Below, one piece after another: positions 21,627 through 54,770 of a stretch of DNA of 64,000 bases. How positions within the stretch are numbered: position 1 is the first letter of the stretch; every line of letters starts with the position of its first letter. The notes beneath the pieces are model-generated. The model was not told the origin of the DNA and ran no database searches. It saw only the letters and a list, made by a program, of their open reading frames with translations. A program made the position numbers and the translations under genes. Source of the DNA: a virus; the IMG/VR virus record IMGVR_UViG_3300023210_000011, positions 67,436 to 131,435 of that record; one strand, written 5' to 3'.

Positions 21627-21644
21627 AGATGCCTAAACGCATGA

Positions 21645-21672: not shown

Positions 21673-21681
21673 GTGTTGAAA

Positions 21682-25705: not shown

Positions 25706-25737
25706 TTCTCCGTAGAGCTCGCCGACGGGCCGGCGCA

Positions 25738-26876: not shown

Positions 26877-26888
26877 GATATTTTCTCC

Positions 26889-31566: not shown

Positions 31567-33630
31567 ATGTCGGTCTCAGGCGAGCTCAGTCGGTTCAATC
31601 CGCGTCGCGCCAGTGTGGACGGGAGCCGTGGATTCGGTATCCAATACCCGTCCCCCTTCTTCGACATCGCGCAGCAGTTCCTCCCGACGAACCAGCACCA
31701 GCTGCACAAGTGGTGTCGGTACTACTTCCTCACGAATCCGGTCATCAACGCCGCCTGCTCCAAGATGGCCGAGTACCCGGTCACCCCTCTGGTGTTCGAG
31801 ACAGAGGACCCGGAGCTCCAGAAGCTCGGACGCAAGGTCGAGGGGCAGCTCAAGCTGCGCTCGTTCCAGGTCGAGGTGGGCCTGGACTACTTCGTGTACG
31901 GCAACGCCTTCGTCTCGGTGTTCCTGCCGTTCGAGAAGTACCTCATCTGCTCGAGCTGCAAGGCCCGGTACCGGGCGAAGACGAACCGCTTCCGCTACAC
32001 CTGGCGCAACTCCCGTTTCTACCTCAAGAAGTGCAAGTGTGGGCACGTCGGCTACGCCAAGCAGCACGACGTCTACATGCGGAGCTTCCGGCAGATCAAA
32101 CTGGTCCGCTGGAACCCCGAGAACATCACGATCAAGCACAACGAGATCACAGGGGAGACGAAGTACTTCTTCAAGCTCCCCCGTGCGGTGCTCAATGACA
32201 TCAAGCTGGGGGACAAGGACACCATCGAGACGCTGCCCATCGAGTTCCTCGAGGCGGCGCGGCGTCGGAAGTCTCTGCTCTTCTCGAAGGACAACCTGTA
32301 CCACCTGAAGCGTCCGACCATCGCGCAGAAGGACCAGGGGTGGGGAACCCCCCTGATCTACCCGCTGCTGAAGGATGCGTACTACCTGCAGGTGATGAAG
32401 AAGGCGAACGAGGCAGTCCTCCAGGAGAGCATCGTCCCCCTCCGCATTCTCTTCCCGGGCCAGAGCACGGGAGGTAACGAGGGGCCGTACGGCGCGTACA
32501 ACCTGACGAACTGGAAGAAGCGTGTTGATGAAGAGATCAACATGTGGAAGCGGGACCACAACTACATCCCTGTCCTTCCGGTGAACGTCGGCTTCCAGCA
32601 GATCGGCGGCCAGGGGCGCTCCCTCCTGCTCTACCAGGAGATGCGACTCCTCGCGGAGCAGATGCTGGCCGGTGCCGGCATCCCCGTAGAGTTCATCTTC
32701 GGCGGCCTCCAGTGGAGTGGGTCGAGTACCTCTCTCCGTGCCCTGGAGAACATGTTCCTGGGCTTCAACATGCAGCGGCATGAGCTCGTGAATGAGTTCA
32801 TCCTCGGGAAGATCTTCTCCTTCATGGACTGGCCGAAGGTCCCTGCGCGGTTCGACAAGTTCCGCATGGCCGACGATCTCCAGAGGAGCATGTTCTACCT
32901 GCAGCTCAACCAGGCACAGAAGATCAGCAACCGCCGGCTCATGGAGGAGGTCGGAGAGAACTTCGACCTCGAGACCGAGCGCATGGAAGACGAGATCGCG
33001 ACGCAGCTCCAGGCCAACCGCAAGATGCAGGTGGCTTCTGCCGACATCCAGGGCGAAGCCCAGCTGCGTGGATCCCGCTACCAGACCAAGGCCCAGGAGC
33101 TCCAGATGCGCTCCCAGGCCAAGGTACAGATGGAGATGCAGCAGGAGCAGATGCAGGCTCAGGCGGCCATGCAGGGCGGAGCTCCGGGGCAGCCTCCCCC
33201 ACAGCAGCCCGCGCAGCCTCCACAGCAGCCTTCACAGCAGCCTCAGCAGGGCGGAGATCAGGCCCAGCAGACTGCAGGTCTCCCAGAAGGGGCCACGGCG
33301 TACGACGAGAACGCACAGAACCCCAACGCCACGGGCATGCCGGCAGCGATGGCGGGAATGCAGTCACAGGTACAGCCCGGTGGAGGAGGCGTAGACCTCC
33401 GGTACATCGCGCAGCGAGCCGCGGCATTCCTGCGCACCGTGAAGGCTGAGCAGGGTGAGGAGGCGATGTTCCAGTCTCTTGCGCAGATGCAGACCTCCAA
33501 CCCCGCGCTCTACCAGCTGGTAGTCCAGCTAATGAATGAGACGGGGTCGAAGCAGGATCCGACAAACGCGATGTCGAATCCTGCTCCGAATGGAACTCCG
33601 CAGGCCAGTGCGGGACGCCAGGTCGGCTAA
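31567..33630 (+). CDS. Portal protein, 687 aa
   Basis: YPSPFFD...WCRYYFLTNPVINAA.SKMAEYP, DYFVYGNAFV, YHLKRPT...WG.PLIYPLLKD: portal-like organisation next to head genes, with a Q/P-rich C-terminal tail. Confidence 0.75.
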   Translation: MSVSGELSRFNPRRASVDGSRGFGIQYPSPFFDIAQQFLPTNQHQLHKWCRYYFLTNPVINAACSKMAEYPVTPLVFETEDPELQKLGRKVEGQLKLRSFQVEVGLDYFVYGNAFVSVFLPFEKYLICSSCKARYRAKTNRFRYTWRNSRFYLKKCKCGHVGYAKQHDVYMRSFRQIKLVRWNPENITIKHNEITGETKYFFKLPRAVLNDIKLGDKDTIETLPIEFLEAARRRKSLLFSKDNLYHLKRPTIAQKDQGWGTPLIYPLLKDAYYLQVMKKANEAVLQESIVPLRILFPGQSTGGNEGPYGAYNLTNWKKRVDEEINMWKRDHNYIPVLPVNVGFQQIGGQGRSLLLYQEMRLLAEQMLAGAGIPVEFIFGGLQWSGSSTSLRALENMFLGFNMQRHELVNEFILGKIFSFMDWPKVPARFDKFRMADDLQRSMFYLQLNQAQKISNRRLMEEVGENFDLETERMEDEIATQLQANRKMQVASADIQGEAQLRGSRYQTKAQELQMRSQAKVQMEMQQEQMQAQAAMQGGAPGQPPPQQPAQPPQQPSQQPQQGGDQAQQTAGLPEGATAYDENAQNPNATGMPAAMAGMQSQVQPGGGGVDLRYIAQRAAAFLRTVKAEQGEEAMFQSLAQMQTSNPALYQLVVQLMNETGSKQDPTNAMSNPAPNGTPQASAGRQVG

Positions 33631-33890
33631 TCCCACTGCGGTGGGTTGATCGCCCACTTGCGAGGCTTTGAGATCTGGATTCCTTCCAGCAGAGCCCCCA
33701 AGATCTTGGGGGCATGTTCCACGAAGCACGCCTCATGGAACATGACTTCGTGATCTCCCGTAGTGAACGTCTCTACTTCTGCGGTCCACCGCACGGCCCG
33801 TCGGAAAATCCGGTGTCGGGAGAGACAGAGGGCGGCCTCCCGCCGCACAATGTGAGCTCCGCAGTACTCACAGTAGTAGCTGGGGGTCAC
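33627..33890 (-). CDS. Small zinc-binding hypothetical protein, about 87 aa
   Basis: YCEYCG...FHEAC; GTGA overlap with the upstream gene. Confidence 0.55.
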   Translation of the reverse strand: MTPSYYCEYCGAHIVRREAALCLSRHRIFRRAVRWTAEVETFTTGDHEVMFHEACFVEHAPKILGALLEGIQISKPRKWAINPPQWD

Positions 33891-34048
33891 GGCATCACCG
33901 CCAGCAGGAAACTCGAGTAGTCTCCGCAGCCAGCACATTCTCCTGCGCCCCAAAAGGGGAGAGCCGGTAGGGCCCCCGCGCAGGCAGAGCACAACCACAG
34001 GGCATCGGGTACTTCCTCCTTCAACTCTGGGCAGCCCTTGCAGTCCAT
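33887..34048 (-). CDS. Small Cys-rich protein, about 53 aa
   Basis: MDCKGC...CSAC...CAGCG; CATACT 29 nt upstream of ATG 34048. Confidence 0.5.
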   Translation of the reverse strand: MDCKGCPELKEEVPDALWLCSACAGALPALPFWGAGECAGCGDYSSFLLAVMP

Positions 34049-34138
34049 GTCCCCACAGCGTCCCTCTACGATCGGGCAGTATGCTGCGAGGATGTCCTCT
34101 TCTGCGGTTCGAGGGGCTATAGAAATCTCGGGAGGACG

Positions 34139-34181
34139 GAGAGAAAGCCCCTCGAGGCCGGCATCACGCCGACCTCGAAGG
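34139..34181 (-). terminator. Intrinsic terminator of a short leftward transcript
   Basis: Minus strand CCTTCGAGGTCGGC-GTGAT-GCCGGCCTCGAGGG (14 bp, two G-U pairs) followed by GCTTTCTCT. Confidence 0.65.
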
Positions 34182-34199
34182 ACACTCTCCCGGGGCCTC

Positions 34200-34307
34200 C
34201 TACCCATCCTGGGCATCGTCCAAGTCCTCGATGTGATCCTCGAAGACGTCAGACGATGTTCTCACGGCGGCAGCAATCACTGCCGCCCAGAAGGCCCACG
34301 TCAGCAT
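34200..34307 (-). CDS. Micro-ORF, 35 aa, hydrophobic N-terminus and acidic C-terminus
   Basis: MLTWAFWAAVIAAAVRTSSDVFEDHIEDLDDAQDG; starts 1 nt after the upstream TGA. Confidence 0.45.
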   Translation of the reverse strand: MLTWAFWAAVIAAAVRTSSDVFEDHIEDLDDAQDG

Positions 34308-34308
34308 C

Positions 34309-34392
34309 TCAGAGCCCTCCCCAATCATCGGGCCACTCCGGCTCGATGGGCTGGGGGTCGGGATCGGTCTTGGTACGCTGCTGCTTGATCAT
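34309..34392 (-). CDS. Micro-ORF, 27 aa
   Basis: MIKQQRTKTDPDPQPIEPEWPDDWGGL; GGAG RBS; TATAAC 33 nt upstream. Confidence 0.45.
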   Translation of the reverse strand: MIKQQRTKTDPDPQPIEPEWPDDWGGL

Positions 34393-34425
34393 GTGCTGCT
34401 CCAGCGTCGGCGCTACTTGCCGACT

Positions 34426-34433
34426 GTTATACT
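34426..34433. promoter_or_regulatory. Overlapping divergent -10 elements (TATACT on +, TATAAC on -)
   Basis: TATACT at 34428-34433 is 27 nt before the RNAP GTG; TATAAC on the minus strand (34431-34426) precedes the micro-ORFs. Confidence 0.55.
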
Positions 34434-34460
34434 TATGGCCTCGATCTGTGGAGTATTTAG

Positions 34461-37400
34461 GTGTCCAATCTGAACCCTGAAGCAGCCCACCGCTCCCTGG
34501 TCCAGAAGACCAAAGAGGCGATCTCCTCTCACTTTCCGATTGAGGGCAGGAAGCACCGCCTGGAGCTCCTCTCTCTCGTCATTGAGGAAGGGCCGAAGTT
34601 CAGTTCGGCCAACTACGAGTCCCAGGCGGGCGCGCGACTGACGGGGAAGACCTGGGGACCGGACATCAAGGCGAAGTTCCGCCTGGTGGACATCGAGACC
34701 AAGAAGGTTCTGGACGAGAAGACCCGGACGATCGGCACTCTGCCCAAGATCACCACTCGGTACAGCTACATCGTAGCAGGCAGCGAGCGGCAGTTCGATG
34801 GGGTGTTTCGGCTGAACCCCGGTGCCTACCACGCAGAGGCCAGCAACGGCGACCTCCTCGCGAAGTGGAATGTCGCTGCTGGGTCAAAGATCGGGTCCTT
34901 CAAGATCTTCATCGAGCGGAAGGACCCGAAGAAGGTCGGGCGCATGCACCTGATCGTGAAGAGCGGGGATGCGTCCACCGTGAAGATCGCGATCTACCCG
35001 GTGCTCAAGGCCATGGGCATCAGCGATGAGCAGATGAAGTCCAAGTTCGGAGAGAAGATCTTCGAGGCCAACAGGGCTGCGGCAAAGCCCGGAACCCTGC
35101 AGCGGTTCCACAAGGCGATCGAGAACCGGAAGAAGTCTCAGGACTACAAGCCCCCGCCCCCAGCAGAGGCTGCCCAGTTCGCCAAGCAGGTGTTTGAGGG
35201 AGCCGAAGTCAGCGCCGACACGATGCAGTCCGCGCTGGGCAAGAAGTTCGAGAAGATCTCCGGGGAGGCCCTGCTCCTCTCCGCGGCGAAGCTGGTGGGG
35301 ATCAGCAAGGGTCGCGTGAAGGAGGACGATCGACAGTCCCTCTCGAACAAGCGCCTCTTCGGGGCCGAGGATTTCATCCACGAGCATCTGACGAAGGGCG
35401 CCAACATCTACTCGTTGCAGCGGAAGATTCGCAACAACGTCGATCGCCGCGATCGCATCTCGGAGATCATCCCCGCACCTGGCGTGGGGTACGGCGCGGC
35501 CATCCTGTCGAAGTTCAAGGCGGGACAGCTCCCCACCCAGACGAACCCCCTGCAGTTCGTCTCGAACCACACGAAGACCACGATCCTCGGAGCGGAGTTC
35601 GGCGGCATCAAGGGCGACAACGTCAACATGATGCAGGACAAGCTGATCAACCCGAGTCACCTCGGGCTCCTCGATCCGCTTCAGACCCCTGAGAACTCCG
35701 CCACTGGCGTAGTCCTCCATGTACCTCTCGGCGCCAAGAAGAAGGGCCACCGGCTGATGGCGCAGGTCATCAACGTGAAGACCCGTCGGGTCGAAGAGAA
35801 GAGCGCCGCCGAGCTCGAGAACGCGGTGGTCGCTTACCCAGACCAGGTCAAGGTCACGAAGAAGGCCGACGGCACGTACAGCCTGAAGCCTCGGTTCTCG
35901 AATGTCGTTGTCTACGACGACGAGCGCAACACCTCCAAGCGCCCATGGAATCAGGTCCAGTACGTGCTCCCCTCGGCTCGGAACCTCTTCGCGATCAGCG
36001 CCAACCTGGTGCCGTTCATCCAGAACGACAACGGCAACCGTGCGATGATGGCCGCCAAGCACCAGGAGCAGGCCGTGGGGCTCCAGAAGCGGGAGGCCCC
36101 ACTGGTACAGTCAGTCCAGAAGGGGAAGGCCTCCTACGAGCGCCTGGTGGGCGCCATGGCCGCTATCACAGCGGTCACGGATGGGACGGTCTCCTCTGTC
36201 TCCAAGAAGGCCATCGTGGTGAAGGGCCCGGACGGCAAGGCCTCGAAGTACCCCCTGTACGATCACTACCCGCTGAACGGCGCGAAGCACATGATGCACT
36301 CCACCCCTCTGGTAGAGGTGGGGGACAAGGTCAAGCGCGGCCAGGTCATCGCGGACTCCAACTTCACCCACAAGGGCACCCTGGCCCTGGGTACCAACCT
36401 GCGTGTGGCCTACATCCCGTACAAGGGCCTGAACTTCGAGGATGGCATCGTCATCTCGGAGAGTGCCGCGTCCAGCCTGGTGTCCAGTCACCTGCACAGC
36501 GTCGAAGTCGAGATGACGCCGAACGTGGTGGTGAACCGGAAGCTGTGGCGGCAGTACGCTGGGGCGATCAAGGCCACTCCTGAGGCGCTTCGGAAGCTGG
36601 ATGAGAATGGCGTGATCAAGAAGGGGACCCGGGTTCAGCCCGGAGATGTCCTGATCGCGAAGCTGCGCAAGCAGGACAACACCAAGGAGACCCAGGTAGT
36701 CAAGGCCGCGCTGAAGAAGGCGATCCGGGACTACGTCGATGCCGCTGAGATCTGGGATCACGAGTACGGCGGCACAGTCGTTCGCGTGGTGAACACCGGG
36801 AAGAAGCTGGCGGTCTACGTCCGGACTGAGCAGACGATGGAGATCGGGGACAAGCTCTCAGGTCGACATGGCAACAAGGGCATCGTCACCAAGATCCTCC
36901 CCGATGACCAGATGCCGCGGGACAAGAGCGGGAAGCACGTCGAGGTTCTCCACAGCCCGGCGGGCATCCCCTCACGCATGAACGTCGGACAGGTCCTCGA
37001 GACCGCAGCGGGCAAGATCGCGAAGAAGACGGGCAAGCCCTTCCTGGTTGAGAACTTCGACCCGGACAAGGACTACAGCCAGTTCGTGAAGGACGAGCTC
37101 AAGAAGCACAAGCTCTCGGACACCGAAGAGCTCTTCGATCCGGAGACGGGGGAGAGCCTCGGTCAGATCTTCACGGGGTTCCAGTACACGCTGAAGCTGG
37201 ACCATCAGGCGGAGAAGAAGGTCACGGCTCGCGCTGGTGGATTCGGGTACAAGTACCGTCCCACTGGGGAGGCAGCTCAGGGCTCTGGCGTCGGGCAGGG
37301 AGGCCAGCGCATTGGTGGCCTGGATCTGTACTCCATGCTGGCTCACGGAGCTGTACACAACCTTCGGGAGATGCAGACCTACAAGTCTGACCGAGAGCAG

Positions 37401-40400
37401 GCCGAGGATGTGTGGCTGCGGATCATGCGGGGAGAGCGCCCGCCGCCCCCGAAGGTCCCCCGCTCCATGGTCCACTTCCAGCACTACCTCCGTGCGATGG
37501 GGGTGAGTACATCCGAGAAGGGTGGAAAGTACAGCCTCATGCCCATGACGGATGCCCAGGCCGTTGCCCAGAGCAGTGGTCAGCTCACCCTCCCAGAGAA
37601 GACGCTCGCGGCCAAGGGCTCGCTGACTCGAGAGGAGCGGGGCGGCCTCTTTGACCGCGGCAAGACCGGAGGGCTTGACGGCCGGAAGTGGAGTCACATG
37701 GACCTGGGCATGCGCGTGCCCAACCCGGTCTTCGAAGAGCCTGTCCGGCTGCTGCTCCGGATGAAGAAGCCCGAGTTCCGGAAGCTCCTGTCCGAGTCCG
37801 GTGCGCAGGGTCGCAAGTCCGGCTTCACGATCATCGAGGAGAAGCTCCGCGCGTTGAACGTGGACACTGAGCTCAAGAAGAGCGAGAAGTCCCTGACGGA
37901 TGCGAAGAAGGGCAAGCTCAACGTGGAGTACAAGCGTGTTCGCTATCTCCGCGCCCTGAAGAAGCTGAAGCTGAAGCCGATCGACGCGTACACCAACCGT
38001 GTGATCCCGGTGCTTCCTCCGCAGCTCCGGAAGGTGAGCATCGGCTTTGACGGCACGCAGATCATCGACCCCGTCAACCAGATGTACGCCATCACCGGGT
38101 CTATGGTGAGGCAGCTCAAGAACGCGGAGAAGGAGCGTCTGCCGGTGGGGGACATCCAGAAGCTCCAGGCGGAGATCTACACGACCGTCAAGGCGCTGCG
38201 CACAACCGGGATGACGCTCGAGGGCAAGCAGCTCCCGAGTCTGATGGACAAGCTTTCGGGGGCGAGCAGCCAGCCGAAATATTCGTTCTTCCAGACGGGC
38301 GTACTCGGCAAGCGTCAGGATCTCTCTGGTCGCTCTGTGATCACACCAGATCCAGACCTCCCGCTGGATGAGGTCGGGGTCCCCCGCTCCATGGCCATGG
38401 AGATGTACAAGCCGTTCGTCATCCGGGAGCTCTGGCGCCGCATGGGGCGCGCGCGTACTCCACGAGAGGCGCGGGAGATGATCAAGAAGAACCACCCCGC
38501 CGCCAACGAGGCGCTGGCCCGCGTGGTGAAGGACCGTCCCGCGATCATGAAGCGGGACCCCGCCCTTCACATGTTCTCGATGATGGCCTTCCGCCCGAAG
38601 ATCGTAGAGGGCCGCTCCATCAAGATCCATCCCCTGGTCGTCGGAGGCTTCAACGCTGACTTCGATGGGGACACCATGGCCATGTACGTCCCGATCTCAG
38701 ACAAGGCGGTGGAAGAGGCGAAGGGCATGCTCCCCTCGAAGAATCTCTTCTCGCCCACTTCTGGCAACCTGATGGTCGCCCCGAGCCAAGATGGCGTCCT
38801 GGGGATCTACCAGGCGACCCGCTGGGGGAAGAAGAAGTCCGGATCCTTCACGCAGGAGGAGGCCCTCAAACTCATGAAGCAGGGCAAGCTGAAGTCCTAC
38901 GATGTGATCTCAGTCAAGGGGATGACGAAGCCCACCACCCCGGGCCGCCTGGCGCTGAACAAGACGCTCCCCGCGGAGTTCAAGGGAGATGCCGAGCTCC
39001 TGCATGACCCCAGCTTCCGCATGGCCAAGGGGAAGATGAAGGGTCTCGCTACGCGGGTCGCTCGAGCGCACCCAGGTGAGTTCGCCTCGATGATCGATCA
39101 GTGGAAGACGCTGGGGCACAATCTGGCCTACAAGAACGGGTCGAGCGTCAGCCTCAACGACTTCCATGACGGCTTCAAGCTCCGAGATGAGCGCCTCAAG
39201 AAGTACCAGGTGAAGGAGCGGGAGATCCGCAAGGGCTCCGGCAGCCAGAAGGAGAAGGACCAGAAGATCGTCAACCTGTACCGCAAGGCGCAGACAGAGC
39301 TCCGTGAGGTCGGCACCGCTCGGTACAACCGCACGGACAGCAACCGCATGTGGGACTGGGCGCAGAGCGGGGCGAAGGGCAACTGGAACCAGTTCGGCCA
39401 GCTCGTGATGGGCCCGATCTTGGTCCAAGATCCGATGAACAAGGAGGTCCCGTTCCCGATCGTGAAGTCGTTCGGAGAAGGCCTCCCCATCTCCCAGTAT
39501 TGGGCATCCCTGCATGGAGCGCGGAAGGGAACCATCGACCGCGCGAGCGCGACGGCGAAGCCTGGCGCGCTCACCAAGGAGCTTATCAACACGGTCATCG
39601 ACCAGACGATCAAGTCGGAAGACTGTGGCACCACGAAGGGCACCCTCCTCCCCGTGACGGATGCAGATGTTGGCGGCCGCTACCTGGCTGCTGATGTCCC
39701 CCTGAAGGGCGGCGATTCCCTCAAGAAGGGCACGCTCATCACTGAGCCCCTCCGCACGCGCCTCAAGAACTCGGGCCCCAAGAAGGTGCTGGTCCGGTCT
39801 CCCCTGGCCTGCAAGGAAGTGAAGGGGATCTGCGCCACCTGCTACGGGCTGAGCGAGCGCGGGAAGAACTACAAGGTCGGCACCAACGTCGGGGTCATCG
39901 CGGGGCACGCCCTCGGAGAGCCCATCACCCAGATGCAGATGCGGACGTTCCACACAGGTGGTGTGGGCGGTGCGGGAGATGTCGGAGACTACTTCACCGC
40001 GGCGGAAGACCTCCTCAAGGTCCCGAAGAAGCTGCGCGGTGAGGCGACGCTGGCGACCGTGTCGGGCCGCGTAGAGAAGATCATGAGCGACGCCCTGGGT
40101 GGAAAGATCGTGACGATCACTGGGAAGCAGCACACGGTCCCGCACACCAACCAGCTCCTCCCCAAGATTCGGGTAGGCGCGGAAGTGAAGAAGGCGGAGG
40201 CCCTCTCCACAGGCAGGAAGAACCCGAACCACATCCTCGAGATCACAAAGAGCATGGGTGCGGTTCGGAACCACCTGACGGAGAACCTGAACAGCCTCTA
40301 CGTGGAGACCACAGGGAACGAGCGGAGGCGCAACATCGAGACGGTGATCCGGGCGATGACCGATCTCACCAAGGTGAACAACCCCGGTGACGCCCCCAAC

Positions 40401-40787
40401 ATCCTGCGCGGGCAGATGCTCCCTCTGAGTGAGGTCGAGAACCTGAACAAAGACCTGCGCCGGGCAGGCAGGAAGGAGATCACCCACAGCCCCACGCTCA
40501 AGCCCCTCAACCAGGCTCCGCTGGCAGGGTCAGAGGACTGGATGGCGCGGCTCAACTTCCAGCGGCTGAAGGAGACGTACGTGGAAGGAGGGGCCCAGAA
40601 CTGGGTCTCTGACATCCACGGCCACCCCATCCCCGGAGCTGCCCACGGTGCTTCCTTCGGGCTCACTCCGCCGTCCCCCGCTACAATGCCCAAGTCGGCC
40701 CCCAAGCCACTTCCTGTCTCGCGGCCTGCGCCCCAAAAGAAGGCCCCGGCCTCGCCACCCTCCAGGTTCTCATTCTTCGGGAAATGA
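34461..40787 (+). CDS. rpoBC: Multisubunit-type RNA polymerase, beta-beta' fusion, 2108 aa
   Basis: beta: QTNPL, GLNFEDGIVIS, GDKLSGRHGNKG, PSRMNVGQ, GGQRIG, TYKSD. beta': VLPPQLR, LGKRQDLSGRSVI, catalytic NADFDGD (38652-38672), GARKG bridge helix, EDCGT, RSPLAC..GICATCYG, GEPITQMQMRTFHTGG trigger loop. One uninterrupted ORF. Confidence 0.97.
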   Translation: MSNLNPEAAHRSLVQKTKEAISSHFPIEGRKHRLELLSLVIEEGPKFSSANYESQAGARLTGKTWGPDIKAKFRLVDIETKKVLDEKTRTIGTLPKITTRYSYIVAGSERQFDGVFRLNPGAYHAEASNGDLLAKWNVAAGSKIGSFKIFIERKDPKKVGRMHLIVKSGDASTVKIAIYPVLKAMGISDEQMKSKFGEKIFEANRAAAKPGTLQRFHKAIENRKKSQDYKPPPPAEAAQFAKQVFEGAEVSADTMQSALGKKFEKISGEALLLSAAKLVGISKGRVKEDDRQSLSNKRLFGAEDFIHEHLTKGANIYSLQRKIRNNVDRRDRISEIIPAPGVGYGAAILSKFKAGQLPTQTNPLQFVSNHTKTTILGAEFGGIKGDNVNMMQDKLINPSHLGLLDPLQTPENSATGVVLHVPLGAKKKGHRLMAQVINVKTRRVEEKSAAELENAVVAYPDQVKVTKKADGTYSLKPRFSNVVVYDDERNTSKRPWNQVQYVLPSARNLFAISANLVPFIQNDNGNRAMMAAKHQEQAVGLQKREAPLVQSVQKGKASYERLVGAMAAITAVTDGTVSSVSKKAIVVKGPDGKASKYPLYDHYPLNGAKHMMHSTPLVEVGDKVKRGQVIADSNFTHKGTLALGTNLRVAYIPYKGLNFEDGIVISESAASSLVSSHLHSVEVEMTPNVVVNRKLWRQYAGAIKATPEALRKLDENGVIKKGTRVQPGDVLIAKLRKQDNTKETQVVKAALKKAIRDYVDAAEIWDHEYGGTVVRVVNTGKKLAVYVRTEQTMEIGDKLSGRHGNKGIVTKILPDDQMPRDKSGKHVEVLHSPAGIPSRMNVGQVLETAAGKIAKKTGKPFLVENFDPDKDYSQFVKDELKKHKLSDTEELFDPETGESLGQIFTGFQYTLKLDHQAEKKVTARAGGFGYKYRPTGEAAQGSGVGQGGQRIGGLDLYSMLAHGAVHNLREMQTYKSDREQAEDVWLRIMRGERPPPPKVPRSMVHFQHYLRAMGVSTSEKGGKYSLMPMTDAQAVAQSSGQLTLPEKTLAAKGSLTREERGGLFDRGKTGGLDGRKWSHMDLGMRVPNPVFEEPVRLLLRMKKPEFRKLLSESGAQGRKSGFTIIEEKLRALNVDTELKKSEKSLTDAKKGKLNVEYKRVRYLRALKKLKLKPIDAYTNRVIPVLPPQLRKVSIGFDGTQIIDPVNQMYAITGSMVRQLKNAEKERLPVGDIQKLQAEIYTTVKALRTTGMTLEGKQLPSLMDKLSGASSQPKYSFFQTGVLGKRQDLSGRSVITPDPDLPLDEVGVPRSMAMEMYKPFVIRELWRRMGRARTPREAREMIKKNHPAANEALARVVKDRPAIMKRDPALHMFSMMAFRPKIVEGRSIKIHPLVVGGFNADFDGDTMAMYVPISDKAVEEAKGMLPSKNLFSPTSGNLMVAPSQDGVLGIYQATRWGKKKSGSFTQEEALKLMKQGKLKSYDVISVKGMTKPTTPGRLALNKTLPAEFKGDAELLHDPSFRMAKGKMKGLATRVARAHPGEFASMIDQWKTLGHNLAYKNGSSVSLNDFHDGFKLRDERLKKYQVKEREIRKGSGSQKEKDQKIVNLYRKAQTELREVGTARYNRTDSNRMWDWAQSGAKGNWNQFGQLVMGPILVQDPMNKEVPFPIVKSFGEGLPISQYWASLHGARKGTIDRASATAKPGALTKELINTVIDQTIKSEDCGTTKGTLLPVTDADVGGRYLAADVPLKGGDSLKKGTLITEPLRTRLKNSGPKKVLVRSPLACKEVKGICATCYGLSERGKNYKVGTNVGVIAGHALGEPITQMQMRTFHTGGVGGAGDVGDYFTAAEDLLKVPKKLRGEATLATVSGRVEKIMSDALGGKIVTITGKQHTVPHTNQLLPKIRVGAEVKKAEALSTGRKNPNHILEITKSMGAVRNHLTENLNSLYVETTGNERRRNIETVIRAMTDLTKVNNPGDAPNILRGQMLPLSEVENLNKDLRRAGRKEITHSPTLKPLNQAPLAGSEDWMARLNFQRLKETYVEGGAQNWVSDIHGHPIPGAAHGASFGLTPPSPATMPKSAPKPLPVSRPAPQKKAPASPPSRFSFFGK

Positions 40788-41242
40788 CCATGAACAAGAT
40801 CGCCGCCTACGAAGCCGCTCTCGCACGCCTCGACGCAGAGAAGACCGCCGAGGCGATCATCGACGCATACGGCACTTCTGAGGGCTACATGCCGGGCCCG
40901 TACCTTCTCGCCTTCGACCAGATGGAGAAGGAGGCGGGCATCAAGGCCCTGCAGGAGTTCGGGAAGGGGTTGTTCCGCTCTGGCATGAAGGGAGCGAAGA
41001 CTGTCGGAACTCGGGTGGGGGGCACCCGAGAGGGGGGTAAGTTCGTCCGTGGCGGCTGGAAGATGAACAAGGGCATGGGCGCAGGAGATCAGCTCAAGTG
41101 GCTCGGGAGCCGCGCCCAGATGCACGTTGGTCGCGCCCTCCAGACCGGCGGCGGCCAGGCAGCCCTCGGTGCCGCGGGCGCTGCTGGAGTGGGTGCCGCC
41201 GGCTACGGAGGCTACCGCGTCCTCGGCGGTGGCCAGAAGTAG
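40784..41242 (+). CDS. KIAAYE-leader + basic amphipathic cargo protein, 152 aa
   Basis: MNKIAAYEAAL..EKTA...MEKEAG then K/G-rich cargo ending in an Ala/Gly helix. Confidence 0.75.
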   Translation: MTMNKIAAYEAALARLDAEKTAEAIIDAYGTSEGYMPGPYLLAFDQMEKEAGIKALQEFGKGLFRSGMKGAKTVGTRVGGTREGGKFVRGGWKMNKGMGAGDQLKWLGSRAQMHVGRALQTGGGQAALGAAGAAGVGAAGYGGYRVLGGGQK

Positions 41243-42340
41243 ATGGAGAGTCCCGCCACGCCAACCCGGGCGGTCTCAGCGCAGATCCACCTCGGCCGAG
41301 TGGTCGAGGTGGACCCCGACCGCTGGATCTGCCGCGTGATCGGCGATGACCCACCGAAGGAGTTCACTCCTGTTCTGGTGTCATCGCTGTTCATGGGCGC
41401 GTTGGGGGAAGGCATCCATGCCATGCCTGAGGTCGGTGCTCGGGTGTACGTGGCCGTACCGTCAGACGGGTCGCAGAAGTTCCTCGTCGGGTACGCGTAC
41501 ACCATGGATCCGACGACAGAGGATGCGCGCAAAGCGGGCTCTTTCCATTCCGGTCGCCCCTACTTGAACCCGGGGGATATCGCCGCGCTCTCTCGAGATC
41601 AGAACGGGGTGGTGATCCGGCGTGGGGGCATCGTAGAGATCCGCAGCACTCCGCTGGCTCGGACCATCTTCAACCCCCAGCAGAACCAGGTACTCACCCT
41701 GGCGGAGAACTGGGAGGTGGAGACATTCGGCGGGAAGATTTCCTGGCGAAACCTCCACAGAGAAGATGATCGAGATGGAGAGCTGACAGCTCAGTACGAG
41801 CACCAAGTACGCCAGTATGTGGATTCCCCCAGCTCTACGCTCCGCCTGCAGATGGGGGCTACCGAGGGGACCCGACTGGAGCTCGATGAGCCGGTAGACC
41901 GGCCTCCTCTGAAGGATGTCTCGACCAAGGTGACACTCCTTGCGGCAGGTGCCCTCGCGCCTCTGCCCATCACGATCCCTGTGCGGAGGCCCGACGCACC
42001 GGACCCCGCAGCGCGAGTAGTGGACTTCCGGGTCTACGACGACGAGATGGCCCCGGTGTCAGCCGAGAGCCTGACGTTCGGGATCTCCCGCCAGGGAGCG
42101 GCGCTCCTCGAGACTGCTGAGAAGATCAGGATCGCCAAGGACGTAGACACCGGCAATAGTGAGCCGGTCCTCCGGGGCAGTTCCTTCCTCTCCGCCCTCT
42201 CCAAGTCTCTCGCTGAGATCCAAGCAGGCCTGAACGCTCTGGGGGTCCCTACCCCGGACACGGCGGTCTTCTTGGGCGAGCTCGCCGCATCAGAGATCAC
42301 AGGGGAGCCCTTCCTTTCCTCCACGCTCGAGAGCGAGTAG
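41243..42340 (+). CDS. Baseplate central spike (gpV/gp5-like) protein, 365 aa
   Basis: N-terminal OB-fold pattern GRVVEVDPD...CRV...EGIHAMPEVGARVYV, followed by beta-rich repeats. Confidence 0.65.
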   Translation: MESPATPTRAVSAQIHLGRVVEVDPDRWICRVIGDDPPKEFTPVLVSSLFMGALGEGIHAMPEVGARVYVAVPSDGSQKFLVGYAYTMDPTTEDARKAGSFHSGRPYLNPGDIAALSRDQNGVVIRRGGIVEIRSTPLARTIFNPQQNQVLTLAENWEVETFGGKISWRNLHREDDRDGELTAQYEHQVRQYVDSPSSTLRLQMGATEGTRLELDEPVDRPPLKDVSTKVTLLAAGALAPLPITIPVRRPDAPDPAARVVDFRVYDDEMAPVSAESLTFGISRQGAALLETAEKIRIAKDVDTGNSEPVLRGSSFLSALSKSLAEIQAGLNALGVPTPDTAVFLGELAASEITGEPFLSSTLESE

Positions 42341-42341
42341 T

Positions 42342-42440
42342 ATGGGTTCACCCGTGCCTGCGAACATCACCTCTTGTTTGGAGGTTACGAGGCAGGCGAA
42401 CCTGGCTACGCGCGCCGGCACCAGTTCAGCCGTCCTGTAG
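42342..42440 (+). CDS. Possible micro-ORF, 32 aa
   Basis: MGSPVPANITSCLEVTRQANLATRAGTSSAVL fills the gap; its TAG overlaps the next RBS (TAGGAG). Confidence 0.3.
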   Translation: MGSPVPANITSCLEVTRQANLATRAGTSSAVL

Positions 42441-42450
42441 GAGCACCTCG

Positions 42451-43650
42451 ATGACTGCCCTCTTCCTTCCCGAGGTCGACCCGCATTCCTTCTTCGAGAA
42501 GGCGGCGTCCATCGCCAAGATGCCGGACGACGAGACGAAGTGGCCTGCGCATGTGCTGTCGAACCTGCACCAGCAGCTCCCGTTCCTCAGCCAGTTCGAA
42601 GTCAACATTGACATCCAGCGCATGGAGCCGGAGGCCGGATTCGCATTCGGGCACGCCATGCTGCTGCCGAAGAGTGATCCCGCTGCGGCGACCGAGTCGA
42701 AGAATCCTGAGAACATGCTCCGGATTCCGATCATCATCTCGGACCGACAGCTGCAGCCCTTCCACGTATTCGAGGTCGCGGGGAACGCGTTCCCCCTGAC
42801 CGCGGAGCGTGTGCAGTCTGCGCTCACCAGCCCGGCCATCTTCGACGGTCCGGCCAAGCGTCCGTCTGGGCAGAAGTCTCTGATCGACCAGCTGCACCCG
42901 CCCTACCAGCAGCGTCAGGGCTTTGGCCTCCACAAGTCTGCGGGGGCGCCGAACTACGAGAACATGAGTGCCGACCAGCTCCAGCAGATGGCGGAGCTCA
43001 AGCGGACGAAGAAGCTCGACAAATACCAGCGCGGGCTCTCCGGGAAGGAGAGGGTCGAAGGGGCCGTTCGTCAGTCCACCATCCCTATCGGGGTTGGTGC
43101 CGGTCTCGGGGCGCTCAGGGCGATGGGAGCATCGAAGGCCAAATGGGACAAGAAGGGCATCCAGCAGCGGCTTGGAGCCGGCCTCGGTGGCGCTCTTGTT
43201 GGTACTGGAACGGGTGCGGCCATCACCGCCGCCAATCAGGGAGTCCAGAACTGGCGGCGGAAGAAGCGAGATGCGGCGCGTAGGGAGATGGGCCTTCTCA
43301 AGAAGGAAGGTTCCGTCACCCTCAGTTTCAGCTCCTCGAACATGGTCCCGGCTTCTGCAGTAGTGGGGAGCCAGCGGCTTCCTCTGAAGAGCGGGGCCAC
43401 GGTGGCTTCCCTCGCCTTCTACCAGGTGCCCGGCACGAAGTTCGTGATGGCCGTACCTCGGAGCATGGCGAAGAAGCTCGAGAAGGTCTCGGACCAGCAG
43501 AAGCTCCGCAGCATGCTCAGCGGTGGGATGCGCGAGGAGATCCGGGCTGCACGCAGCGGACTCCCTTCCCCCGGCCTGTTCATGGTCTTCGAGAAGGCCA
43601 AGAAGGGCTACCGCTACCTCAAGCCCAGTCCCATCGCCGGCATGCGCTGA
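42451..43650 (+). CDS. Modular head protein: globular N-domain + KxA-bounded glycine-zipper cargo, 399 aa
   Basis: FEKAAS, HKSAG, KKEGS boundaries; GVGAGLGAL and GAGLGGALVGTGTGAA helices. Confidence 0.7.
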   Translation: MTALFLPEVDPHSFFEKAASIAKMPDDETKWPAHVLSNLHQQLPFLSQFEVNIDIQRMEPEAGFAFGHAMLLPKSDPAAATESKNPENMLRIPIIISDRQLQPFHVFEVAGNAFPLTAERVQSALTSPAIFDGPAKRPSGQKSLIDQLHPPYQQRQGFGLHKSAGAPNYENMSADQLQQMAELKRTKKLDKYQRGLSGKERVEGAVRQSTIPIGVGAGLGALRAMGASKAKWDKKGIQQRLGAGLGGALVGTGTGAAITAANQGVQNWRRKKRDAARREMGLLKKEGSVTLSFSSSNMVPASAVVGSQRLPLKSGATVASLAFYQVPGTKFVMAVPRSMAKKLEKVSDQQKLRSMLSGGMREEIRAARSGLPSPGLFMVFEKAKKGYRYLKPSPIAGMR

Positions 43651-44054: not shown

Positions 44055-44067
44055 GTAGGAGAAGCCC

Positions 44068-52140: not shown

Positions 52141-52169
52141 GTCTTCCGAAAGCGTTATGCCGGATTTCT

Positions 52170-53885
52170 ATGAGTTTTTCCAAAGACCATTCGGGGCCAT
52201 GGGAGTACCAGGCGCCGCGTAGGGAGAGGCAGAAGTCGGCAGATCTACGCCGTGCGCCGATCCCCGTGCGTCCCTCCGAGTTCGTCGAGACCACGGTTCT
52301 CATGCCGGACGCGCACACCCGGTCCCTCACGAACTTCTCGTTCGCAGAGCGGGGGTACCTTCGGGAGATCTACGACATCCAGGCACCCCGCACGTTGCTG
52401 ATGTGCGGCAGACAGGTCGAGAAGAGCACGACGCTCGGCAACAAGATGCTGGCCTACTCGTGTCTCATCCCCCACTTCAAGGTTCTCTACGTCTCGCCCT
52501 CGAGCACGCAGACGAAGGAGTTCTCGAAGACGCGGCTGAAGGAGTCGATCGATACGTGTCCAGATCTACGGACCTGGTTCCCGTCGCACCTCACGGACAA
52601 CGTCTTCGAGAAGAAGGCGATCAACCGTAGCAAGCTCACCCTGCGGTACGCCTTCCTCAACGCTGACCGGTGCCGTGGGCTGTCCGCCGATCTCATCGCG
52701 ATGGACGAGTTTCAGGATCTCCTGCTCGACAACATCCCGGTCATCGAAGAGGCCGCATCCCACAGCCCCTTCAAGTGGTTCATCTACAGCGGCACCCCCA
52801 AGTCGCTGGACAACCCCATCCAGGTCTACTGGGACTCGTATTCGACGAAGAACGAGTGGGTGGTGCCTTGTGATAGGCATGGCCTCCCCAACAACCCCGG
52901 GTCGTGGCACTGGAACATCCTGGGGGAGAAGAACATCGGCCTTCGAGGCCTCTCCTGTGATCGGTGTGGGGAGCCCATCCACGCGAACCACCCGATGGCT
53001 CAGTGGATCCGGACCGGCAACCCGAACCCGAAGTTCGACACCTTCGAGGGCTTCCGCATCCCTCAGTTGATGGTGCCCTGGATCTCTTGGAGCAACATTC
53101 TAACGAAGTACAACGGGTACTCGAGAGGCAAGTTCTACAATGAGGTCCTTGGCCAGAGCTTTGACTCCGGCCAGCGCCCCCTGACGCAGAGCGACGTCCA
53201 GGCGAACTGCGACCCCGAATTCAGCATGGCCGCGGACAAGCTGAAGGAGGCGATGGGCAAGGTCCGGGGCAAGAAGGTCTACGCTGGGATCGACTGGGGG
53301 CAGGACAGCAACAACTCGTACACGATCTTGATGATCGGTGCGTACATCGACGGGTTCTTCCGCATCATCTTCTCGCACAGATTCAGCGGTGCGGAGGCGG
53401 AGCCGAAGGAGCAGATCACCAAGATCAAGAAGCTCCTCAAGGCGTTCAATATCGACCGAGTGGGGGTCGATTACGGTGGAGGCTACTGGCCGAATGATGA
53501 GCTCTTGCGGACGTACGGATCCCAGCGCGTCGTCAGGTACCAGTACTCCACTCCGAAGACGATCATGAAGTACGACTCCTCGAAGGGGCGCTTCCTGATT
53601 CACCGCTCTGAGGTGATGAGCGCGGTCTTCAACGCCATCAAGCGGCGGTCGGTCTTCCGATTCCCGAAATGGTCGGAGTTCCGGAGCCCCTTCGCGTCGG
53701 ACATGCTGGCGATCTTCTCTGAGTACAACGAGCGCACGCGGATGACGGAGTACCGGAAGTCTCCGAACACCACGGATGACTCCTTCCACGCCCTGCTGCT
53801 CTGTTTCATCGTCTCCATGATCGACAACCCGCGTCCGGACATCCTGGTACCGAGTGCTAAGATCGATCGGGAACTGGATGACTGA
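52170..53885 (+). CDS. terL: Terminase large subunit, 571 aa
   Basis: Walker A-like CGRQVEKST, Walker B IAMDEFQD, SGTPKS, nuclease YAGIDWG, VGVDYGG, DDSFHA. Confidence 0.88.
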   Translation: MSFSKDHSGPWEYQAPRRERQKSADLRRAPIPVRPSEFVETTVLMPDAHTRSLTNFSFAERGYLREIYDIQAPRTLLMCGRQVEKSTTLGNKMLAYSCLIPHFKVLYVSPSSTQTKEFSKTRLKESIDTCPDLRTWFPSHLTDNVFEKKAINRSKLTLRYAFLNADRCRGLSADLIAMDEFQDLLLDNIPVIEEAASHSPFKWFIYSGTPKSLDNPIQVYWDSYSTKNEWVVPCDRHGLPNNPGSWHWNILGEKNIGLRGLSCDRCGEPIHANHPMAQWIRTGNPNPKFDTFEGFRIPQLMVPWISWSNILTKYNGYSRGKFYNEVLGQSFDSGQRPLTQSDVQANCDPEFSMAADKLKEAMGKVRGKKVYAGIDWGQDSNNSYTILMIGAYIDGFFRIIFSHRFSGAEAEPKEQITKIKKLLKAFNIDRVGVDYGGGYWPNDELLRTYGSQRVVRYQYSTPKTIMKYDSSKGRFLIHRSEVMSAVFNAIKRRSVFRFPKWSEFRSPFASDMLAIFSEYNERTRMTEYRKSPNTTDDSFHALLLCFIVSMIDNPRPDILVPSAKIDRELDD

Positions 53886-54344: not shown

Positions 54345-54346
54345 TT

Positions 54347-54736: not shown

Positions 54737-54770
54737 TAGGTACCTCCTTTGCCACAGAGGTTATGGCCGT

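What the first reader, a model, noticed from the sequence alone, without database searches (positions are those of the whole stretch)
34461..40787. Single-chain beta-beta' RNA polymerase in a tailed phage
One 2108-aa ORF holds bacterial-type beta motifs, then beta' motifs, joined at about 37500-37540 (VPRSMVHFQHYLRAMGV-STSEKGGKY-SLMPMTD). The NADFDGD centre, bridge helix, trigger loop and second zinc site are intact. Each half is about 1000 aa, well short of E. coli beta (1342) and beta' (1407). Beta-beta' fusions are known in Helicobacter and Wolbachia, and phiKZ-like phage RNAPs are split rather than fused. Metagenomic phages with beta/beta' genes have been reported, so novelty needs checking. 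No alpha, omega or sigma gene is visible in the window.
Basis: partly seen in the sequence, partly recalled or inferred. Interest (0 to 1): 0.8.

Follow-up and report, generated by a model that had tools for sequence, protein, structure and literature searches.

The report
Single-chain bacterial-type phage RNA polymerase
An uncultured marine tailed phage encodes both large subunits of a bacterial-type RNA polymerase as one 2108-residue protein next to its portal gene; the enzyme is real, belongs to a large and barely described phage family, and probably works with the phage's own sigma factor, possibly after delivery inside the virus particle.

Summary
Window 34461-40787 (+) is one uninterrupted 2108-codon frame: a complete beta half (residues 1-1022) runs straight into a beta' half (1023-2108). 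Contigs from four independent marine runs cross the junction with no difference.

The fusion is not a curiosity of this contig. At least 150 protein clusters (50% identity) and at least 585 IMG/VR stretches are relatives, and all 150 clusters and the best 80 stretches carry the same fused architecture. The closest cultured relatives are Salmonella phage Arash and Vibrio phages D69/D181/D148. They share the beta-beta' junction but are split later, inside beta'.

New points:
- The whole family lacks the beta' N-terminal zinc finger.
- A sigma70-family gene lies outside the window in the same contig, and in 13 of 16 long relatives.
- No alpha or omega gene was found, and each genome has only one RNAP.
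- The gene sits between the portal gene and a baseplate-spike-like gene across the family.

Arash virion proteomics found the homologous RNAP and sigma in particles, so a packaged two-protein holoenzyme is the best reading, but this is inferred. No paper describing the full fusion was found. This scan has already reported the same family on other genomes.

The parts
34461..40787 (+). Fused beta-beta' RNA polymerase gene, 2108 aa, GTG start preceded by GGAG
   Evidence: N-terminus aligns with relatives that start at the same residue
34461..37526 (+). Beta half (residues 1-1022). Aligns to E. coli beta 52-1342 but lacks SI1 and SI2. Includes the rifampicin-pocket region (residues ~351-382), NFED (658-664), the flap tip (744-758) and GDK..RHGNKG (796-807).
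37497..37553 (+). Junction. The beta C-terminal strand and the beta' N-terminal strand are joined by a Gly-Gly turn with no linker; the first ~15-18 residues of bacterial beta' are absent.
   Evidence: alignment; AF2 model of residues 941-1300 puts the junction in a beta-hairpin with pLDDT 87-89; the model matches the bacterial beta' clamp
37527..40784 (+). Beta' half (residues 1023-2108). Clamp helices ~1204-1249, NADFDGD 1398-1404 (nt 38652-38672), bridge helix (nt 39498-39596), second zinc site Cys 1722/1784/1791/1794 (nt 39624-39842), trigger loop without SI3 (nt 39915-40016).
37644..37697 (+). Site where the bacterial beta' N-terminal zinc-binding domain (E. coli Cys70/72/85/88) is missing. 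The 32-residue gap is shared by all fused relatives examined and by Arash and D69.
40659..40784 (+). Pro/Ala/Ser-rich C-terminal tail ending in an aromatic motif. The tail is variable in the family, but the end is usually aromatic.
31567..33630 (+). Portal protein gene, upstream neighbour on the same strand
   Evidence: 30% identity, E 5e-84, to Arash portal gp204; a homologue lies upstream on the same strand in 52 of 80 family loci
33627..33890 (-). Small Cys/His protein (87 aa) on the opposite strand between portal and RNAP. Conserved only in the closer relatives.
34433..34458 (-). Leftward promoter-like motif (AAA-N-GGCCATAA) abutting the RNAP start codon. Its reverse complement gives TATACT 27 nt before the GTG.
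40784..41242 (+). 152-aa protein whose start overlaps the RNAP stop (ATGA). Gly-rich C-terminus, function unknown.
41243..42340 (+). 365-aa protein resembling baseplate assembly protein V / central spike (a lead only)
   Evidence: ESM Atlas feature and structure neighbours carry PF04717; downstream of the RNAP in 57 of 80 family loci; no Pfam or PHROG hit
52266..53885 (+). Large terminase subunit
   Evidence: 29% identity to Arash gp1; Pfam GpA_ATPase

Best explanation
The gene encodes the complete catalytic core of a bacterial-type RNA polymerase as one polypeptide. The beta C-terminus is joined directly to the beta' N-terminus inside the clamp module.

The chain keeps everything needed for catalysis. 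It also keeps the two sigma docking sites: the beta flap tip and the beta' clamp helices. It has lost the beta' N-terminal zinc finger and the lineage-specific insertions.

I propose that it needs no alpha dimer or omega, because covalent linkage replaces the assembly platform. I further propose that it pairs with the phage's own 270-residue sigma70-family factor to form a two-protein holoenzyme that reads phage-specific promoters.

Both genes lie among virion genes, and the homologous proteins of phage Arash are abundant in purified particles. The enzyme and its sigma are therefore most likely made late, packed into the capsid and delivered with the DNA to start early transcription. Newly made copies of this enzyme, the only RNAP gene found in complete relatives' genomes, would continue later transcription.

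Shown: identity, integrity, fusion, zinc-finger loss, sigma presence and co-occurrence, absence of alpha/omega homologues, and gene context. Inferred: sigma partnership, independence from alpha, packaging and promoter class.
For: - Enzyme identity and intact motifs.
- Ordered junction within a clamp-like fold.
- Fusion conserved in at least 150 clusters at 50% identity and in the best 80 of at least 585 IMG/VR relatives.
- Sigma gene at G000 54128-54940: homologous to Arash gp10; Pfam Sigma70_r3 44 bits against a cut-off of 25; family profile matches SigA/RpoS over regions 2-4 at E 5e-17; top fold matches are all sigma factors.
- One Sigma70_r3 ORF in 13 of 16 long family records, and in 8 of 10 that are at least 90% complete.
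- No alpha N-terminal domain in any of the 16 records (PF01193). PF01000 and the omega family PF01192 are absent from the two records searched, G000 and G001.
- Exactly one RNAP gene per record.
- Portal lies upstream in 52 of 80 family loci, and a baseplate-V-like gene downstream in 57 of 80.
- The Arash virion mass spectrometry lists gp206, gp216 and sigma gp10 among particle proteins, with gp206 the most abundant (PMC10585845).
- A promoter-like motif occurs 25 times on the minus strand and never on the plus strand, where fewer than 1 is expected. It lies mostly upstream of leftward small genes, and its -35-like element is unlike TTGACA.
Against: - There are no protein or expression data for this phage. 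No RNA run holds the sequence, so timing is inferred from position only.
- The Arash authors themselves allow that abundant non-structural proteins might co-purify with particles.
- The RNAP lacks the N-terminal K-x-A type leader that the sigma and some other plus-strand proteins carry.
- Natural split forms exist: Arash/D69 are split inside beta', and one relative has separate beta and beta' ORFs overlapping by ATGA. A single chain is therefore not strictly required.
- Three of the 16 long records show no Sigma70_r3 match.
- Many phages use their own sigma factors to redirect the host core enzyme, so the sigma partnership is not proven.
- Host alpha and omega could still be recruited.
Confidence: 0.6

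Rival explanations
1. Non-virion phage polymerase. Host RNA polymerase reads the early genes; the fused enzyme is made during infection and transcribes middle or late genes, as with the phiKZ or AR9 non-virion enzymes. Its presence in Arash particles would then be carry-over.
For: No direct packaging data exist for this phage. The RNAP lacks the leader motif seen on the sigma and other putative cargo proteins. The Arash authors mention possible co-purification. The -10-like part of the leftward motif (CATAAT) is close to a sigma70 -10 element.
Against: The gene sits between portal and baseplate genes across the family. That is where late, structural genes lie, and it is a poor place for an enzyme needed before late expression. 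Only one RNAP is encoded per genome. In Arash the homologue gave the highest spectral count of all particle proteins, with 100% coverage.
Confidence: 0.25
2. The phage sigma does not serve the fused enzyme. It redirects the host core polymerase, as T4 gp55 or SPO1 gp28 do, while the fused enzyme uses another, unrecognised specificity factor or none.
For: Phage sigmas acting on host core are common (established knowledge). Three of the 16 long records lack a detectable Sigma70_r3 ORF. phiKZ- and AR9-type phage RNAPs work without a sigma70-family factor (PMC7824862).
Against: Sigma and fused RNAP co-occur in 13 of 16 records across 35-72% RNAP identity. The fused chain keeps a flap tip and full-length clamp helices, which are the sigma4 and sigma2 docking sites. 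Sigma and RNAP are both particle-associated in Arash.
Confidence: 0.12
3. The fused chain still needs the host alpha dimer and omega. It would be a replacement of the two large subunits within an otherwise host-built enzyme.
For: The halves are about 30% identical to bacterial beta and beta', so alpha-binding surfaces could persist. Absence of phage alpha and omega genes is equally expected under this model.
Against: Related phages span many habitats and base compositions, which would demand compatibility with many different host alphas. An enzyme delivered in the particle would have to meet host alpha after entry. Other phage two-barrel polymerases work without alpha (PMC7598289).
Confidence: 0.15
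4. Artefact: a mis-assembled, frameshifted or contaminating bacterial rpoB-rpoC pair read as one ORF.
For: None found. One relative does show a one-base difference that separates the two halves, so indels at this spot occur.
Against: Four independent runs give identical sequence across the junction. Hundreds of diverged relatives keep the same frame. Flanking genes are phage genes. The best cellular match is about 33% identity.
Confidence: 0.01

Closest known systems
RNA polymerase of Salmonella phage Arash (gp206 + gp216, with sigma gp10) and of Vibrio phages D69, D181 and D148
   Same: Same beta-beta' junction and same deletion of the beta' zinc finger. Portal two genes upstream. Homologous sigma, portal, terminase and helicase. 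Together they form one clade against three bacteria (100% SH-aLRT). Arash is a myovirus of 181 kb.
   Different: About 30% identity. In those phages the chain is cut inside beta', near residue 1490-1500 of this protein, into about 1525 + about 606 residues. The two pieces are separated by other genes, including homing endonucleases in D181/D148. Here the chain is continuous. The Arash paper annotates the pieces as beta and beta' and does not describe a fusion.
Natural beta-beta' fusions of Helicobacter and Wolbachia, and engineered E. coli fusions (from established knowledge, not tested against their sequences)
   Same: The beta C-terminus is joined in frame to the beta' N-terminus. This shows that the topology is compatible with an active enzyme.
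   Different: Those are chromosomal housekeeping genes that work with alpha, omega and host sigmas, and as far as I know they keep the zinc finger. This one is phage-encoded, lacks the zinc finger, and is at most 33% identical to any cellular rpoBC in the GTDB scan, whose top 80 records name neither genus.
mReC, the metagenomic Caudovirales with deep-branching beta and beta' (Weinheimer and Aylward 2020, PMC7481178)
   Same: Tailed phages from metagenomes with recognisable bacterial-type beta and beta', some with halves of about 1000 residues each.
   Different: Every mReC entry read in Supplementary Data 2 lists beta and beta' as different ORFs, and the paper mentions fusion only for crAss-like phages. 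Whether the fused family falls inside mReC was not tested, because no mReC sequences were in hand.
phiKZ / AR9-type jumbo-phage virion and non-virion RNA polymerases
   Same: Phage-encoded relatives of beta/beta' that work without alpha and omega. In those phages one set is packaged and injected to read early genes (PMC7598289).
   Different: There, beta and beta' are each split into two or more polypeptides, two enzyme sets are encoded, the sequences are far more diverged, and no sigma70-family factor is used. Here there is one chain, one enzyme and a sigma.
Single-chain virion polymerases of N4-like (about 3500 aa, T7-type) and crAss-like phages (two-barrel, RNAi-polymerase-like)
   Same: Very large single polypeptides carried in the particle and delivered to begin transcription (abstracts). 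These are functional analogues of the proposed role.
   Different: Unrelated (N4) or only distantly related (crAss) in sequence and fold. This protein is a canonical bacterial-type core at about 30% identity to cellular enzymes.

Membership tests
Bacterial-type multisubunit RNA polymerase core (beta + beta') | Beta' double-psi barrel with the NADFDGD magnesium site | tested here: met
   NADFDGD at 1398-1404; the three Asp are invariant in 17 family members
Bacterial-type multisubunit RNA polymerase core (beta + beta') | Beta barrel with active-site lysines (GDK..RHGNKG) and the NFED motif | tested here: met
   12 of 21 residues identical to E. coli 1060-1080, and 9 of 16 to 805-820
Bacterial-type multisubunit RNA polymerase core (beta + beta') | Bridge helix, trigger loop and second (Cys4) zinc site | tested here: met
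   27 of 67 residues identical over the F-loop and bridge helix; trigger loop present without SI3; Cys1722/1784/1791/1794 invariant
Bacterial-type multisubunit RNA polymerase core (beta + beta') | Beta' N-terminal zinc-binding domain (E. coli Cys70, 72, 85, 88) | tested here: not met
   32-residue gap at this site in the window protein, 10 fused relatives, Arash and D69
Bacterial-type multisubunit RNA polymerase core (beta + beta') | Alpha dimer and omega encoded alongside | tested here: not met
   PF01000 and PF01192 are absent from G000 and G001; PF01193 is absent from 16 records, 10 of them at least 90% complete; all controls were positive. Use of host alpha/omega cannot be excluded.
Bacterial-type multisubunit RNA polymerase core (beta + beta') | Initiation through a sigma70-family factor | tested here: inconclusive
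   A sigma70-family gene is present and co-occurs with the RNAP, and the docking elements are kept. Binding itself cannot be tested with these tools.
Bacterial chromosomal beta-beta' fusions (Helicobacter, Wolbachia) | In-frame joining of the beta C-terminus to the beta' N-terminus | tested here: met
Bacterial chromosomal beta-beta' fusions (Helicobacter, Wolbachia) | Descent within those bacterial lineages and a chromosomal housekeeping context | tested here: not met
   The contig is a phage contig with portal and terminase. Cellular matches are at most 33% identical, and the 80 best GTDB loci name neither genus. No direct alignment with their sequences was made.
Arash-type phage RNA polymerase | Shared junction, shared zinc-finger deletion, homologous sigma and portal adjacency | tested here: met
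Arash-type phage RNA polymerase | Beta' split into two genes | tested here: not met
   The frame is continuous here. Arash gp206 ends near residue 1495, and gp216 aligns from residue 1488.
Arash-type phage RNA polymerase | Presence of the enzyme in purified particles | not testable with these tools
   Known only for Arash itself
mReC lineage (PMC7481178) | Beta and beta' on separate ORFs | tested here: not met
   All entries read in Supplementary Data 2 name two ORFs; here there is one
mReC lineage (PMC7481178) | Placement inside the mReC clade in an RNAP tree | not tested
phiKZ/AR9-type jumbo phage RNA polymerases | Beta and beta' each split into several polypeptides, two enzyme sets, no sigma | tested here: not met
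   One continuous gene and one RNAP per genome; sigma present

The most novel reading that the evidence does not exclude
A minimal bacterial-type transcription machine made of only two proteins: a 233-kDa beta-beta' chain without alpha, omega or the beta' zinc finger, plus one phage sigma. It would be loaded into the capsid of widespread 165-200 kb marine and other myoviruses, and ejected into the cell as a single chain that refolds without an assembly platform. It would be the only polymerase the phage needs from first to last gene, giving host-polymerase-independent (and probably rifampicin-insensitive) infection outside the nucleus-forming jumbo phages.
Probability: 0.4. Interest if true: 0.8.

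Novelty: new variant of a known kind. Interest (0 to 1): 0.6.

Why it matters
If the two-protein model holds, this is the simplest known enzyme of the cellular RNA polymerase type. It would be one chain plus one sigma, roughly 30% identical to bacterial enzymes and therefore interpretable with existing structures.

It would allow direct tests of three questions: what alpha, omega and the beta' zinc finger are really needed for; how a very large polymerase can be packaged and delivered by a contractile-tail phage; and how promoter recognition co-evolves with a private sigma.

The family is abundant in marine, freshwater and host-associated viromes, so it describes the transcription strategy of a sizeable group of environmental phages that has cultured entry points (Arash, Vibrio D69). 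It could also serve as a compact orthogonal transcription module.

The relationship between fused, ATGA-overlapping and split forms shows how subunit fusion and fission happen by single-base or mobile-element events.

Tried and rejected
- Megablast of 30000-45000 against 50,697 phage records found no match.
- PHROGs on ten neighbouring ORFs gave almost nothing. Pfam on most structural-side ORFs gave nothing.
- A Sigma70_r2 (PF04542) search of the genome and two relatives was negative, although a sigma is there. Only region 3 scores above threshold, so the r2 blank was misleading.
- No RNA holder was listed among the sequencing runs, so expression could not be examined.
- No tRNA and no Rfam family were found in the window.
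- The + strand ORF 34038-34388 between portal and RNAP is not conserved in relatives and was dropped in favour of the minus-strand 87-aa gene.
- I looked for the K-x-A type leader (a lead from earlier notes) on the RNAP. None lies in its first 25 residues, and 14 K-x-A triplets in 2108 residues is about the chance number.
- I tried to test whether the sigma family occurs in phages without the RNAP. The sigma alignment has no stretch conserved enough for a collection scan.
The context of the unfused relative was obtained from IMG/VR instead; the context of P0273, a 994-aa separate beta' on a 172-kb contig, was not examined.
- Literature searches for a described phage beta-beta' fusion found only crAss-type and P23-45-type enzymes and bacterial or engineered fusions.

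Full report
**Observation**

Window 34461-40787 (+) is a single ORF of 2108 codons with a GTG start and no internal stop. Pfam places Rpb2 domain 6 at residues 575-927 and domain 7 at 947-1016. These are followed by Rpb1 domain 2 (1283-1423), domain 3 (1428-1567) and domain 5 (1674-1974). The best solved-structure matches are bacterial beta' chains, for example 8i23_D at E 3e-114, with query 1101-2049 against chain residues 173-1153.

**Is the fusion real?**

- The window is the second half of a 131,435-bp IMG/VR virus record that CheckV rates about 70% complete.
- Eight public marine or seawater metagenome runs from five studies hold at least 99% of the words of 36000-39000.
- Contigs from four of those runs, from four studies, cover the 3 kb around the junction with no substitutions and no indels, at word depths of 14-143.
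- The identical protein is recorded on 18 contigs, the longest 168,161 bp.
- Independent relatives at 35-86% identity keep the same single frame.

Mis-assembly and frameshift are excluded.

**Anatomy**

BLAST and MAFFT against E. coli RpoB and RpoC give these correspondences:

| Window protein | E. coli |
|---|---|
| residues 20-202 | beta 52-231 |
| residues 232-776 | beta 375-931 |
| residues 781-1016 | beta 1048-1336 |
| residues 1119-1834 | beta' 179-939 |

- The beta half therefore lacks only the lineage-specific insertions SI1 and SI2. The beta' half lacks SI3.
- The last beta residue corresponds to residue 1022. The next residues align with E. coli beta' from about residue 16-20, so there is no linker and the first few beta' residues are gone.
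- An AlphaFold2 model of residues 941-1300, built on 43 family sequences (mean pLDDT 80, pTM 0.74), puts the junction in a beta-hairpin with pLDDT 87-89. It shows two long helices at about 1204-1249, the clamp helices.
- That model superposes on the N-terminal clamp of bacterial beta' chains (TM by query about 0.58).
- Between the conserved GLF..G and W.H motifs, E. coli has the 32-residue zinc-binding domain with Cys70/72/85/88. This protein, ten fused relatives, Arash gp206 and Vibrio D69 all have a gap there.
- The second zinc site, the three catalytic Asp, the beta lysine motif, the bridge helix and the trigger loop are kept. A flap-tip segment is also present.
- In the rifampicin pocket the equivalents of E. 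coli D516, H526 and S531 are T, N and T. In 17 family members position 526 is never His. Reduced rifampicin sensitivity is an inference from known resistance positions.

**How common is it?**

- A word-indexed search of 5.8 billion proteins listed 120 clusters of about 2040-2120 residues at 40-100% identity, on contigs up to 200 kb.
- An exhaustive HMMER search with residues 700-1500, which span the junction, was run against 1.84 billion 50%-identity representatives. It gave 150 listed hits, all with E at or below 1e-143 and all crossing the junction.
- A scan of IMG/VR found at least 585 stretches that encode a relative. The best 80 all match residues of about 1-2070 as one block.
- Longer members (2400-4739 residues) carry inteins with LAGLIDADG endonuclease domains. 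One common insertion point is directly after NADFDGD.
- In 185,579 GTDB species genomes only two records hold a fused relative: a 162-kb contig in a cyanobacterial bin and a 204-kb contig in a Bacteroidales bin. Both have phage-like contig sizes. All true cellular rpoB-rpoC pairs reach only 27-33% identity.

The enzyme therefore does not fall inside a cellular fused clade.

**Cultured relatives**

Among 50,697 phage records the best matches are Vibrio phages D69, D181 and D148 (about 187 kb) and Salmonella phage Arash (181 kb), at 29-30% identity. In these phages one gene (Arash gp206, 1525 aa; D69 0261, 1527 aa) covers beta plus the first part of beta'. A second gene (Arash gp216; D69 0264; about 606 aa) covers the rest. 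They share the junction and the zinc-finger deletion.

In a maximum-likelihood tree of 22 sequences, the phage proteins form one clade against three bacteria (100% SH-aLRT). Arash/D69 sit in an unresolved basal three-way split with fused lineages. The tree has only three bacterial outgroups, so it supports a single origin of the junction but not a donor.

One relative, present in two IMG/VR records, has separate beta and beta' ORFs that overlap by ATGA exactly at the junction. It differs from the fused frame by one base. A relative 75% identical to its beta' protein is fused. Fused and two-gene states thus interconvert easily, and the single chain is favoured but not obligatory.

**Partners**

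- Sigma70_r2 was not found in the contig. However, tblastn with Arash proteins located a homologue of the Arash sigma gp10 at G000 54128-54940, outside the window (31% identity, E 2e-21).
- This homologue scores 44 bits on Sigma70_r3 against a cut-off of 25.3.
- A profile of 11 family members matches SigA and RpoS chains over regions 2 to 4 at E 5e-17.
- Its AlphaFold2 model (pLDDT 76) retrieves only sigma factors as top fold matches.
- In 16 long family records (10 at least 90% complete, four with terminal repeats, 163-198 kb), 13 have exactly one Sigma70_r3 ORF. None has an alpha N-terminal domain. Each has exactly one RNAP gene.
- Alpha (PF01000) and omega (PF01192) are also absent from this contig and its 89%-complete relative.

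**Context**

- The window carries a leftward replication block: a RecA-like protein, family A DNA polymerase, DnaB-type helicase and an SF2 helicase.
- It also carries a rightward block with portal (31567-33630), the RNAP, a 152-aa protein whose start overlaps the RNAP stop, a 365-aa protein resembling baseplate protein V (Atlas lead), and the large terminase.
- Portal lies upstream on the same strand in 52 of 80 family loci. The 365-aa protein lies downstream in 57 of 80. Portal also lies two genes upstream of gp206 in Arash.
- The sigma gene lies among very large putative structural genes that are syntenic with Arash gp6-gp13.
- The Arash paper reports gp206 as the protein with the most spectra in purified particles (3516; 100% coverage). 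It also finds gp216, sigma gp10 and helicase gp217 there, while noting that abundant enzymes might co-purify (PMC10585845).

**Promoter-like motifs**

The word G[GC]CATAA occurs 25 times on the minus strand of the contig and never on the plus strand. A second-order Markov model predicts fewer than one per strand. Of 36 [GCT]CATAA sites, 28 are intergenic and lie upstream of leftward genes, mostly the small genes of the first 45 kb. These sites have:
- an AAAttt-like element about 16-17 nt upstream;
- a TAGTAG-like stretch;
- a GGAGG ribosome site downstream.

The pattern with its upstream AAA is strand-specific in this contig (18 against 0; reversed control 1). It is also strand-specific in relatives at 66% and 47% RNAP identity (9:0 and 6:0).

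Three copies lie in the window. One abuts the RNAP start codon on the opposite strand. Its reverse complement gives TATACT 27 nt before the RNAP start, and the same hexamer lies 25-28 nt before two other rightward starts. Which polymerase reads either element is unknown. The non-canonical -35-like element and its conservation across diverged phages make the phage holoenzyme a reasonable candidate.

**Interpretation**

- Shown: a complete, conserved, single-chain bacterial-type core without the N-terminal zinc finger; a private sigma70-family factor; no alpha or omega homologue; one RNAP per genome; a fixed place in the virion gene block.
- Inferred: the chain assembles without alpha because the halves are tethered within the clamp; it binds the phage sigma through the retained flap tip and clamp helices; it is packaged with sigma and injected to read early genes; later copies continue the programme.
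- Main rival: a non-virion enzyme, with host polymerase reading the early genes.

I found such a leader on five of 143 predicted proteins, where about 1.6 are expected. The five include the sigma and the homologue of the particle-associated Arash helicase, but not the RNAP.

**Novelty**

I found no paper that describes a bacterial-type beta-beta' fusion in phages.
- The mReC paper lists separate ORFs and mentions fusion only for crAss-like phages.
- The jumbo-phage reviews cover split enzymes.
- The Arash paper annotates beta and beta' without comment.

This scan has already reported the same family on other genomes with the same conclusions. I re-tested each point here and added five things: the junction model, the read evidence, the family-wide counts, the unfused ATGA variant and the strand-specific motif.

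It is a new architectural variant of a known kind of enzyme. The open mechanistic question of packaging and a two-protein holoenzyme can be answered in cultured relatives.

Noticed in passing
window 34433-34458 (-), 52155-52179 (-), 54761-54785 (-); about 22 more copies in G000 1-45 kb, outside the window: A strand-specific promoter-like motif, AAAttt-N16-G[GC]CATAA(t/g)-TAGTAG-GGAGG. It occurs 25 times on the minus strand and never on the plus strand, where fewer than 1 is expected. It lies mostly upstream of leftward small genes, and the same strand bias is seen in two relatives.
   Followed up: partly
window 34428-34433 (+), 55434-55439 (+); also G000 about 44684-44689: The hexamer TATACT lies 25-28 nt before the start codons of the RNAP gene, the 314-aa gene at 55470 and the first large structural gene. 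In two of the three cases it is the reverse complement of the leftward motif, suggesting divergent overlapping promoters.
   Followed up: no
relatives P0047, P0182, P0193 and many others (2400-4739 aa): Up to three or four inteins with LAGLIDADG endonuclease domains interrupt the fused polymerase in relatives. Recurrent sites are directly after NADFDGD (about residue 1406), at the zinc-finger deletion site (about 1074), and near residues 840-870 and 1273.
   Followed up: partly
L194:1780-8210 (IMGVR_UViG_3300020193_000004) and L193: This relative has beta and beta' as two ORFs overlapping by ATGA exactly at the junction. It differs from the fused frame by one base. The same sequence occurs in two records, and a relative 75% identical to its beta' protein is fused.
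   Followed up: partly
window 33627-33890 (-): An 87-aa protein with a CxxC ... HExC pattern lies between portal and RNAP on the opposite strand. It is conserved only in relatives with at least 64% RNAP identity. Function unknown.
   Followed up: partly
G000 54128-54940 (sigma) and 36877-39753, both outside the window; window 42451, 46299 and 58883 gene starts: Five plus-strand proteins start with a short leader of the type hydrophobic-E-K-x-A within 25 residues, where about 1.6 are expected. The sigma's leader is followed by a low-confidence linker in the model. The RNAP has no such leader.
   Followed up: partly
window 40659-40784 (+): The RNAP ends in a Pro/Ala/Ser-rich tail of about 40 residues that terminates in aromatic residues. 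More distant relatives lack the long tail but still end in Y or F.
   Followed up: no
window 12978-28268 (-): A leftward replication block: RecA-like protein (16422-17612), family A DNA polymerase with 3'-5' exonuclease (19221-21626), DnaB-type helicase (23725-25137) and an SF2 helicase (26889-28268).
   Followed up: partly
window 692-5455 (+) and 6251-12775 (+): Two very large ORFs (1587 and 2174 aa) have no Pfam match. They follow a 2243-aa and a 771-aa ORF that lie mostly or wholly outside the window. They are probably virion, tail-fibre or ejection proteins.
   Followed up: no
window 59986-60618 (+): A 210-aa protein with an N-terminal glycine-zipper segment and a DnaJ (J-domain) match.
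   Followed up: no
L113 (CBDHHL010000046.1, 162,553 bp) and L114 (DAOQAF010000001.1, 204,271 bp): Two contigs filed in bacterial MAGs (Leptolyngbyaceae, Bacteroidales) carry fused polymerases of this family and have phage-genome sizes. They are probably phage genomes binned with possible hosts.
   Followed up: no
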